A stretch of DNA of 19,149 nt from a virus, in the UHGV virus genome UHGV-0137562; one strand, 5' to 3'. Numbering within the stretch: position 1 is the stretch's first letter; each line of letters opens with the position of its first letter. The notes under the pieces were generated by a model that searched no databases, was not told the origin of the DNA, and was given only the letters and a program-made list of their open reading frames with translations. The position numbers and the translations under genes were made by a program. Shown here in pieces: positions 13,738-14,678 of this stretch.

Positions 13738-14376
13738 TTAATTGCGAATGGAATCGCGGAACTCTTTGCTTGATAGAAAAGGATCTGTTCTCCTTAACTC
13801 ATCATAGTTTTTATTAAACTTTCTTGCTTCACCTGGGTATCTGTTGAACAAAACATTGCAGAAAAAAGAGAGCAATAACTCACATATGAATGCTAATACC
13901 CTGAAAAATAAAGGTATAAAAAGAAGGGAAGGTTCATTGAAGTCTCTATTCCAAACAAAATAGACAATCATCCCGACATACCAAATTGATATCCCTATAC
14001 TGATGATTGTTCCAACAGAGGTAACTACGATCCCGATTAAGTCGGACAGTCTGTTTGCCAGTAACTCATTTGAGTATCTTGCAATCATATACCGCCAACA
14101 TTTTGCAATATCATCCTGATCTGTAGAGTCTTCTGGAATAGCTAGGCTTCTACATATTGAAGTAGCTCTTTTTTTCTCAACTCTTTTTGAGAGCCATCCA
14201 TTAAAGAGATACATCAACACCTGCGTTGCTATTCCTGCACCAAGTGATATCAAAGACATCCCCAAAAATCGCCATCCTGGAGATAGTGACTGGTACTGCC
14301 AAACAAAAAAAATTAAAAAACCCAATGAGCCTATGACATAGGCTGATGTATCGCTATATATATCTATTTTTTTCAT
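13738..14376 (-). CDS. Polytopic inner-membrane protein, candidate superinfection-exclusion (SieA-like) function, about 212 aa
   Basis: At least three long hydrophobic segments (GSLGFLIFFVWQY, GIVVTSVGTIISIGISIWYVGMIVYFVW, LLFIPLFFRVLAFICELLLSFFCNVLF). ATG at 14376 preceded by AAGGAG; the track start at 14409 is a GTG. AT-rich. Occupies the position where P22 carries sieA. Function inferred from position only. Confidence 0.5.
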   Translation of the reverse strand: MKKIDIYSDTSAYVIGSLGFLIFFVWQYQSLSPGWRFLGMSLISLGAGIATQVLMYLFNGWLSKRVEKKRATSICRSLAIPEDSTDQDDIAKCWRYMIARYSNELLANRLSDLIGIVVTSVGTIISIGISIWYVGMIVYFVWNRDFNEPSLLFIPLFFRVLAFICELLLSFFCNVLFNRYPGEARKFNKNYDELRRTDPFLSSKEFRDSIRN

Positions 14377-14426
14377 TGAGTAGCCACTCCTTAGTTTTGA
14401 GCAGAACACCGGATGATAATGTTTTG

Positions 14427-14678
14427 TTATGTGTCTTTTGGGATTCTATCCAGTAACTCGTTGGAAATTTTATCAAGTAAAGATTTTATTTGTTTAAGAT
14501 CTAATGATTTGTCTACTGATGAGACGTCAGATGATAACGCATCCTCAAGAATTTGAACTATCTCTGAGTTCATAGATCGACCGTTTCGTTTAGCCCTTTC
14601 CGCAATAGCACTACGCATGCCGTCAGGCATTCTAACCGTAAATCTTTCTATGAAATTTGATTCGTCTTTTTCTGACAT
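14427..14678 (-). CDS. Ribbon-helix-helix repressor of the Arc/Mnt family (Mnt-sized, 83 aa)
   Basis: FTVRMPDGMRSAIAERAKRNGRSMNSEIVQILEDAL fits the RHH beta-strand/helix A/helix B signature (compare Mnt FNFRMP...ANGRSMNSELLQIV). Start placed at ATG 14678; the upstream hydrophobic 16-aa extension to 14726 is considered unlikely. Confidence 0.72.
   Translation of the reverse strand: MSEKDESNFIERFTVRMPDGMRSAIAERAKRNGRSMNSEIVQILEDALSSDVSSVDKSLDLKQIKSLLDKISNELLDRIPKDT

What the first reader, a model, noticed from the sequence alone, without database searches (positions are those of the whole stretch)
13738..14678. Minus-strand RHH-regulator plus membrane-protein operon, candidate superinfection-exclusion module
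An Mnt-sized RHH gene (14678 to 14427) is followed 50 bp downstream by a polytopic membrane protein with an AAGGAG RBS (14376 to 13738). Both are AT-rich and run opposite to the structural genes. The arrangement resembles a repressor-controlled exclusion or abortive-infection determinant at the P22 sieA location, but the membrane protein was not recognisable to me as SieA by sequence.
Basis: partly seen in the sequence, partly recalled or inferred. Interest (0 to 1): 0.65.

Follow-up and report, generated by a model that had tools for sequence, protein, structure and literature searches.

The report
Known type B SieA exclusion gene
The membrane-protein gene is a near-identical copy of an already tested superinfection-exclusion gene (type B sieA of E. 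coli prophage HS1), and the small regulator beside it belongs to the neighbouring antirepressor switch, so this is ordinary P22-like prophage anatomy.

Summary
Both ORFs are real and lie at the stated coordinates. The 212-aa membrane protein (13738-14376, minus) is 211/212 identical to SieA of E. coli HS prophage HS1. It is 28% identical to P22 SieA and carries the family motif FxRYPxEAxxFNK. Leavitt et al. 2024 (mBio, PMC10883804) showed that the HS1 "type B" SieA, cloned alone, fully excludes P22-like phages. The 83-aa RHH protein (14427-14678, minus) occupies the Mnt position of a P22-type immI region. It is divergent from arc-ant, with overlapping face-to-face promoters and two perfect palindromes in the operator positions. 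The two genes are not an obligate regulator-effector pair. The same sieA allele occurs behind an HTH gene or with no same-strand upstream gene. This RHH class also occurs next to arc/antirepressor genes without sieA. What differs from P22 is only the junction: orf59a and the mnt terminator are absent, so sieA lies 50 bp behind the RHH gene and may be co-transcribed with it. Novelty: already known. Interest is low.

The parts
13738..14376 (-). sieA, type B superinfection-exclusion inner-membrane protein (212 aa, stop codon included)
   Evidence: 211/212 aa identical to E. coli HS prophage HS1 SieA. 28% identical to P22 SieA, E 2e-24. PHROG 7745 SieA-like, E 1.6e-20. Motif FNRYPGEARKFNK at aa 177 and hydrophobic spans at 37-58, 110-142 and 149-178.
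14387..14392 (-). AAGGAG ribosome-binding site, 10 nt before the sieA ATG
   Evidence: Read directly from the sequence. The leader CAAAACTAAGGAG is shared with P22 sieA.
14377..14422 (-). Conserved sieA leader block with a -10-like TATCAT (14418-14413), equivalent to the -10 end of P22's putative PsieA
   Evidence: Identity with the HS1 and Z1322HEC0003 prophages starts here and continues through sieA. It aligns by eye with P22's annotated PsieA and leader. No good -35 hexamer lies at 16-20 nt spacing.
14427..14678 (-). 83-aa ribbon-helix-helix repressor in the Mnt position of immI
   Evidence: Pfam Arc, E 1.4e-17. 55% identical to P22 Mnt residues 7-44. Full-length 81-84-aa homologs with a conserved C-terminal tail occur in several enterobacterial genera.
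14722..14749 (-). Pmnt-like promoter (ATGCCA-16-TATGAT) for the RHH gene
   Evidence: Consensus scan, 9/12. It overlaps the Pant-like promoter face to face, as Pmnt and Pant do in P22.
14728..14755 (+). Pant-like promoter (TTGACA-16-CATAAT) for arc-ant
   Evidence: Consensus scan, 11/12.
14732..14756 (.). Perfect palindrome CATTATGA-N9-TCATAATG between the -35 and -10 of the Pant-like promoter (the Oarc position in P22)
   Evidence: Position compared with the P22 annotation.
14762..14782 (.). Perfect palindrome ATGACATCA-N3-TGATGTCAT just downstream of the Pant-like -10 (the Omnt position in P22); candidate operator of the RHH protein
   Evidence: Arms of 9 nt or more appeared in 34 of 5000 shuffles.
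14802..14975 (+). arc-like RHH gene (57 aa from the PGAP start; the ORF opens at 14784)
   Evidence: Pfam Arc, E 1.1e-11. PGAP annotates it as 'Arc family DNA-binding protein'.
14972..15098 (-). sar-like antisense element: promoter TTAAAA-16-TATAAT (15098-15071) and a two-hairpin RNA (about 15066-14972) opposite the arc-ant junction
   Evidence: dG -32.8 kcal/mol, z -4.78. The second hairpin resembles the P22 sar terminator. No Rfam match.
15049..15687 (+). ant antirepressor (Bro-N + P22_AR_C domains)
   Evidence: phrog_245, E 1.3e-63. The start follows the PGAP annotation of the homologous gene.
11875..13716 (+). Gene 16 homolog (DNA transfer/ejection protein), convergent with sieA; this protein class is the presumed SieA target
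   Evidence: phrog_770, E 1.3e-279. P22 gene order. Escape mutations map to gp16 and gp20 (PMC10883804).

Best explanation
The window is the late-operon end of a mosaic P22-like E. coli prophage. The order is gene 16, then sieA (minus), then an immI region (Mnt-position RHH on the minus strand; arc, sar-like element, ant and a second antirepressor on the plus strand), then the tailspike gene. The membrane protein is SieA type B. It is a prophage-expressed inner-membrane protein with an inferred N-in/C-in four-segment topology and the cytoplasmic FxRYPxEAxxFNK motif. It stops superinfecting P22-like phages from delivering DNA across the inner membrane. It most likely does this by interfering with the conduit built from ejection proteins gp20 and gp16. 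The RHH protein is the functional counterpart of P22 Mnt. It is inferred to bind the 14762-14782 palindrome over the start of the Pant-like promoter. That would keep the antirepressor genes off in the lysogen and thereby favour its own overlapping promoter. sieA and the RHH gene are two separately mobile modules joined at the RHH stop codon. sieA keeps a -10-like element and leader homologous to P22's. Because orf59a and the mnt terminator are missing, it is probably also read through from the RHH promoter. Shown: the sequence identities, gene order, promoter and palindrome positions, and module independence. Taken from the literature for the near-identical HS1 protein or for P22 SieA: exclusion, inner-membrane location, and gp16/gp20 involvement. 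Inferred: topology, operator assignment and co-transcription.
For: 211/212 identity to HS1 SieA. Homology to P22 SieA. The motif and the hydrophobic spans line up with those of P22 SieA. Gene order matches the annotated P22 map. PMC10883804 reports three SieA types, with type B in E. coli carrying a roughly 30-aa N-terminal extension and an extra transmembrane segment. The same paper reports that HS1 sieA plus 106 bp upstream fully excluded P22, L, MG40, MG178 and LP7, that P22 SieA is in the inner membrane, and that escape mutations map to gp16 and gp20. The RHH protein has the Arc/Mnt fold signature and Mnt's length. Overlapping divergent promoters and two perfect palindromes lie in the Oarc and Omnt positions. 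Module independence is shown by sieA behind an HTH gene in HS1 and EC17CM7, sieA alone in Z1322HEC0003, and the RHH class with arc and a Bro-N gene but no sieA in L007-L009. No terminator was found in the 50-bp gap. The leader and -10 are homologous to P22's PsieA.
Against: No experiment exists on this exact allele (it differs from HS1 SieA by L62I) or in this regulatory context. Equating the paper's locus tag EcHS_A0321 with ECHS_RS01600 is inferred from position, length and prophage context, not read from a table. The N-terminal hydrophobic stretch falls below my 19-residue hydropathy cut-off. No convincing -35 element exists for a sieA promoter. The RHH C-terminal tail shows no similarity to P22 Mnt's tetramerisation domain. 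A second RHH gene at 16739-17026 is the closer full-length Mnt homolog, so which protein controls the Pant-like promoter is not settled.
Confidence: 0.9

Rival explanations
1. The RHH protein and the membrane protein form a dedicated regulator-effector operon, in which the RHH protein represses or autoregulates transcription of the exclusion gene.
For: The genes are on the same strand, 50 bp apart, with no terminator between them and similar low GC content. Thirteen E. coli genomes carry the pair intact at 99.7% identity or higher.
Against: The same sieA allele is found behind an unrelated HTH gene and with no upstream same-strand gene. At least 19 of the 32 E. coli genomes with this sieA do not carry the full RHH-sieA stretch; the two examined have no RHH gene upstream. 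The RHH class is found with arc and antirepressor genes but without sieA. The palindromes lie in the divergent arc-ant promoter region, and none lies between the RHH gene and sieA. HS1 sieA works when cloned with only 106 bp of upstream sequence. In P22, mnt and sieA are separate transcription units.
Confidence: 0.12
2. The pair is a type II toxin-antitoxin or abortive-infection module, with an RHH antitoxin upstream of a membrane-damaging toxin.
For: An RHH gene directly upstream of a second small gene is the usual antitoxin-toxin layout. The RHH protein also matches Pfam FitA-like_RHH at E 4e-08.
Against: The membrane gene occurs without any RHH partner. Single-copy P22 sieA has little effect on growth, and both P22 and HS1 sieA were stably expressed alone. 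The documented phenotype is a block of DNA injection, not death of infected cells. PADLOC has no match for either protein.
Confidence: 0.03
3. The RHH gene is a decayed remnant, as PGAP suggests with 'incomplete; missing C-terminus', so only sieA is functional.
For: PGAP flags it as a pseudogene in two genomes. Its C-terminal 36 aa match nothing in phage records.
Against: The ORF is 83 aa, the same length as P22 Mnt. Homologs of 81-84 aa at 51-76% identity in Salmonella, Citrobacter, Hafnia, Obesumbacterium and Cronobacter keep the C-terminal tail (LD[LM]KQI..LLDKI.NEL). Some records annotate it as an intact 83-aa Arc family protein (P0003 and P0009).
Confidence: 0.05

Closest known systems
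SieA type B of E. coli HS prophage HS1 (EcHS_A0321; Leavitt et al. 2024, PMC10883804)
   Same: 211/212 identical protein and the same length. Same position after the gene 16 homolog and on the opposite strand. Identical 47-bp leader and RBS.
   Different: One conservative substitution (L62 here, I62 in HS1). The upstream neighbour is an 83-aa RHH gene rather than HS1's 213-aa HTH gene, so sequence beyond about 47 bp upstream, including any -35 element, is unrelated.
P22 SieA (type A)
   Same: Homologous over aa 44-191 (28% identity). Shares the FxRYPxEAxxFNK motif, three corresponding hydrophobic spans, the same genome position, and a homologous leader CAAAACTAAGGAG.
   Different: The window protein has about 30 extra N-terminal residues with an additional hydrophobic segment, and about 16 extra C-terminal residues. 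P22 has orf59a, a terminator and about 690 bp between mnt and sieA, whereas this window has 50 bp.
P22 immI region (mnt, Pmnt/Pant, Oarc, Omnt, arc, sar, ant)
   Same: The same order and orientation of an RHH repressor, overlapping divergent promoters, two palindromes in the operator positions, an arc-like gene, an antisense hairpin element and an antirepressor.
   Different: The RHH protein shares only its N-terminal DNA-binding domain with Mnt (55% over 38 aa), and its C-terminal tail is unrelated. The palindrome sequences differ from P22's. There are two tandem antirepressor genes and an additional, more Mnt-like RHH gene before the tailspike. There is no Rfam match for sar.
Other prophage inner-membrane proteins that block DNA entry, such as HK97 gp15 and T4 Imm (recalled from my own knowledge, not tested here)
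   Same: A small, prophage- or phage-encoded inner-membrane protein that blocks genome entry of related phages after adsorption.
   Different: No sequence relationship was sought or found. These proteins act on different injection machineries.

Membership tests
SieA superinfection-exclusion proteins (types A-C, Leavitt et al. 2024) | Detectable sequence homology to P22 SieA | tested here: met
   PHROG 7745, E 1.6e-20. tblastn against P22 sieA, E 3e-11. Pairwise 28% identity over 148 aa, E 2e-24.
SieA superinfection-exclusion proteins (types A-C, Leavitt et al. 2024) | Conserved motif FxRYPxEAxxFNK near the C-terminus | tested here: met
   FNRYPGEARKFNK at aa 177-189. P22 has FGRYPGEANGFNK at aa 145-157. 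The motif is defined in PMC10883804.
SieA superinfection-exclusion proteins (types A-C, Leavitt et al. 2024) | Located in a P22-like prophage between the gene 16 and gene 9 homologs | tested here: met
   Gene 16 homolog at 11875-13716 and tailspike at 17129-18838. P22 map.
SieA superinfection-exclusion proteins (types A-C, Leavitt et al. 2024) | Polytopic membrane protein; type B adds an N-terminal extension of about 30 aa containing a further membrane segment | tested here: met
   Hydropathy spans at 37-58, 110-142 and 149-178 match P22's three. The alignment offset is 30 aa. The extra stretch at aa 12-27 is hydrophobic but falls below the 19-residue cut-off. TMHMM for type B is reported in the paper.
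SieA superinfection-exclusion proteins (types A-C, Leavitt et al. 2024) | Type B membership (clusters with HS1 SieA) | tested here: met
   211/212 identical to L005:25466-26101.
SieA superinfection-exclusion proteins (types A-C, Leavitt et al. 2024) | Inner-membrane localisation and block of DNA injection by P22-like phages | not testable with these tools
   Localisation was shown for P22 SieA, and exclusion for both P22 and HS1 SieA (PMC10883804). Applied to this allele by 99.5% identity.
P22 Mnt-type immI repressor | N-terminal Arc/Mnt ribbon-helix-helix DNA-binding domain | tested here: met
   PF03869, E 1.4e-17. 55% identity to Mnt residues 7-44.
P22 Mnt-type immI repressor | C-terminal oligomerisation domain homologous to that of P22 Mnt | tested here: not met
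   No alignment beyond aa 49. The tail is conserved within its own class but differs from P22 Mnt. The second RHH gene at 16739-17026 does have the P22-like C-terminus.
P22 Mnt-type immI repressor | Transcribed divergently from arc-ant from overlapping promoters, with palindromic operators | tested here: met
   Promoter-like sites at 14728-14755 (+) and 14749-14722 (-). Palindromes at 14732-14756 and 14762-14782. P22 layout. Protein binding itself was not tested.
Type II toxin-antitoxin pair (RHH antitoxin + toxin) | The two genes co-occur obligately as a unit | tested here: not met
   sieA without the RHH gene. The RHH class without sieA.

The most novel reading that the evidence does not exclude
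In this prophage lineage, a recombination joint exactly at the RHH stop codon removed orf59a, the mnt terminator and the -35 region of PsieA. As a result, sieA may now be expressed mainly as the second gene of the RHH transcript. That would couple exclusion strength to the state of the immI switch. The RHH protein would also represent a distinct Mnt-like class, with its own C-terminal oligomerisation tail and operator (ATGACATCA-N3-TGATGTCAT).
Probability: 0.3. Interest if true: 0.2.

Novelty: already known. Interest (0 to 1): 0.1.

Why it matters
It matters mainly for annotation. PGAP calls this sieA 'hypothetical protein' and calls the RHH gene a pseudogene. PADLOC and Pfam have no model that matches SieA. 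The gene should instead be annotated as type B SieA, a proven defence against P22-like phages. About 0.6% of complete E. coli genomes (32 of 5426) carry this allele. That is relevant to predicting host range for P22-like coliphages. It does not open a new biological question.

Tried and rejected
- **Phage DNA search:** megablast of 13000-16600 against phage records found no DNA-level match for the sieA-RHH stretch. The protein-level search was needed.
- **Pfam:** no family matches the membrane protein; there were only sub-threshold chance hits.
- **PADLOC:** no match for either protein.
- **Rfam:** nothing at gathering threshold over the whole window. At E up to 10 over 14350-15250 there was no sar family hit, only chance-level symR and AaHKsRNA82 matches.
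- **sieA promoter:** no -35 hexamer lies 16-20 nt upstream of the TATCAT element.
- **Second RHH gene:** no palindromes were found upstream of it.
- **Internal hairpins:** two terminator-like hairpins lie inside the sieA coding region. I judged them by-products of Phe/Leu-rich coding, because they lie within the conserved ORF.
- **Window source:** the whole-window search found no E. coli genome covering more than 74% of the window, so the exact source prophage was not identified.
- **Structure prediction:** not run. The 99.5% identity to a tested protein settles the assignment, and only single-sequence input would have been allowed for a type A/B alignment.
- **Toxin-antitoxin and dedicated-operon readings:** considered and rejected because the two modules occur independently.

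Full report
**Observation**

The two minus-strand ORFs exist as described. The ORF table and the sequence give an RHH gene at 14678-14427 (83 aa). They give a membrane-protein gene at 14376-13738 (212 aa). AAGGAG lies at 14392-14387, 10 nt before the ATG, and the intergenic gap is 50 bp.

PGAP uses the same starts in identical E. coli sequence. The two genes are 36-37% GC against 46.9% for the window. They are flanked by plus-strand structural genes: a gene 16 (DNA transfer protein) homolog at 11875-13716, and a tailspike at 17129-18838.

**What the membrane protein is**

- Pfam has no family for it. PHROGs places it in phrog_7745, 'superinfection exclusion SieA-like' (E 1.6e-20).
- tblastn against phage records finds only P22-group sieA genes (27% identity, E 3e-11).
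- Pairwise BLASTP against P22 SieA gives 28% identity over 148 residues (E 2e-24).
- Its three strong hydrophobic spans (aa 37-58, 110-142, 149-178) correspond to P22 SieA's three. It carries FNRYPGEARKFNK at aa 177.

Leavitt et al. [quoted passage not shown] They define the conserved motif FxRYPxEAxxFNK. Type B occurs in E. coli and Salmonella prophages and has an N-terminal extension of about 30 aa with an extra predicted membrane segment.

Their type B example is the HS1 prophage of E. coli HS. I fetched that prophage. Its sieA-position gene (ECHS_RS01600, 212 aa) is 211/212 identical to the window protein, differing only by L62I. Equating it with the paper's locus tag EcHS_A0321 is my inference from position, length and prophage context.

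The paper reports that HS1 sieA, cloned with 106 bp of upstream DNA in single copy, fully excluded P22, L, MG40, MG178 and LP7. For P22 SieA it reports the following:
- The protein is located exclusively in the inner membrane.
- It blocks DNA injection.
- It is overcome only by combined changes in the C-terminal parts of ejection proteins gp16 and gp20.

From the charge distribution, the loop at aa 61-112 has 10 K/R and the C-terminal tail has 9 K/R. Using the positive-inside rule, I infer an N-in/C-in topology with four segments. This agrees with the paper's statement that the motif and the N-terminus are cytoplasmic.

**What the RHH gene is**

It has the Arc/Mnt RHH signature (PF03869, E 1.4e-17), the same length as P22 Mnt (83 aa), and 55% identity to Mnt residues 7-44.

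The layout copies the annotated P22 immI region:
- Upstream lie overlapping face-to-face promoter-like sites: TTGACA-16-CATAAT on the plus strand at 14728-14755 (11/12), and ATGCCA-16-TATGAT on the minus strand at 14749-14722.
- Then come an arc-like gene (14802-14975), an antirepressor (15049-15687; Bro-N + P22_AR_C) and a second antirepressor (15775-16503).
- Two perfect palindromes sit in the positions of P22's operators. CATTATGA-N9-TCATAATG (14732-14756) lies between the -35 and -10 of the Pant-like promoter. ATGACATCA-N3-TGATGTCAT (14762-14782) lies just downstream of its -10. Arms of 9 nt or more arose in 0.7% of shuffles.
- A minus-strand promoter-like site (15098-15071), followed by a strongly folding two-hairpin RNA (z -4.78), occupies the place of P22's sar antisense RNA. 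Rfam does not recognise it.

I therefore assign the RHH protein to the immI switch, as the Mnt-position repressor of the antirepressor promoter. That it binds either palindrome is an inference.

Its C-terminal 36 residues are unrelated to Mnt's tetramerisation domain and match nothing in phage records. This probably explains PGAP's 'missing C-terminus' pseudogene flag. The flag looks like an artefact. Homologs of 81-84 aa at 51-76% identity keep this tail in Salmonella, Citrobacter, Hafnia, Obesumbacterium and Cronobacter.

**Are the two genes one functional unit?**

The evidence says no.
- Of the 32 complete E. coli genomes carrying this sieA allele, only 13 carry the full sieA-plus-RHH stretch.
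- In HS1 and EC17CM7, the gene upstream of sieA is a 213-aa HTH protein. In Z1322HEC0003 there is no same-strand upstream gene at all.
- Alignment shows that shared DNA starts only about 47 bp upstream of the sieA ATG, right at the RHH stop codon.
- Conversely, a 68%-identical member of the RHH class sits divergent from a 53-aa gene and a Bro-N gene, in prophages whose neighbouring genes include a tape-measure-like protein, with no sieA downstream.

The conserved 47-bp block contains a TATCAT element and the leader CAAAACTAAGGAG. These align with the -10 end of P22's annotated putative PsieA and its leader. No acceptable -35 hexamer precedes it.

P22's orf59a and mnt terminator are absent, and no terminator lies in the gap. 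Read-through from the RHH promoter into sieA is therefore plausible. This is the one feature that differs from P22, and it is untested.

**Rivals**

- A dedicated repressor-effector operon and a toxin-antitoxin pair are both contradicted by the independent occurrence of each gene.
- They are also contradicted by the reported ability to express sieA alone without a growth cost.
- Abortive infection is contradicted by the reported injection block.
- A decayed RHH gene is contradicted by conservation of the full-length class.

**Verdict**

The exclusion function and the sieA position are right. The 'repressor-controlled operon' and 'abortive infection' readings are not supported. This is an already known gene in an ordinary, mosaic P22-like prophage. 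Its value is for annotation, since current pipelines label it hypothetical and defence databases miss it.

Noticed in passing
window 16739-17026 (-): There is a second RHH gene, just upstream of and divergent from the tailspike gene. It is 47% identical to P22 Mnt over 73 aa, including Mnt's C-terminal domain (E 5e-24). That makes it a closer full-length Mnt homolog than the finding's RHH gene. The same gene position is occupied in HS1 and other E. coli P22-like prophages. No palindrome was found upstream of it. Its role is unknown.
   Followed up: partly
protein P0015, compared with window 14427-14678 and 16739-17026: A database protein is a chimera of the two RHH types. Its N-terminal DNA-binding half is like the window's second RHH protein (MMYSKYDEAQFHLRL...). 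Its C-terminal tail is identical to that of the finding's RHH protein. The crossover falls at the conserved NSEIV motif. This looks like domain shuffling between DNA-binding and tail domains.
   Followed up: no
L005:26166-26807 (-) (E. coli HS) and L004:4742-5383 (-): In HS1-type prophages the Mnt position is taken by a 213-aa helix-turn-helix protein (WP_001008290.1). It lies on the same strand as sieA and 64 bp upstream of it. So the repressor of the immI-like region is replaceable by a different fold.
   Followed up: no
window 14972-15098 (-): A sar-like antisense element lies opposite the arc-ant junction. It has a promoter-like site TTAAAA-16-TATAAT and an RNA of about 95 nt with two hairpins (dG -32.8 kcal/mol, z -4.78). 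The second hairpin, GAGGCCCGG...CCGGGCUUC, resembles P22's sar terminator. Rfam does not detect it.
   Followed up: partly
window 15049-16503 (+): Two antirepressor-type genes lie in tandem downstream of arc: one with Bro-N and P22_AR_C domains (phrog_245), and one matching phrog_1726. A 73-aa ORF follows at 16503-16724. About 95% identical DNA occurs in Escherichia phage JEP4 and in Salmonella phages such as SPN3UB.
   Followed up: no
L002 (E. coli O111:H- 110512), 12875-19301: The copy of this prophage that is 100% identical over 13700-14800 is degraded. IS1203 insertions interrupt the gene 16 homolog and the antirepressor gene. The sieA and RHH genes between the two insertions remain intact.
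   Followed up: no
window 14328-14344 and 14257-14285 (-): Two terminator-like hairpins followed by T-runs lie inside the 5' part of the sieA coding region. They are probably a by-product of Phe-rich membrane-segment codons. An attenuating effect on read-through was not examined.
   Followed up: no
window 17501-18500: There is a strong positive GC skew (0.26-0.34) and low GC content (about 40%) within the tailspike gene. This was not examined.
   Followed up: no
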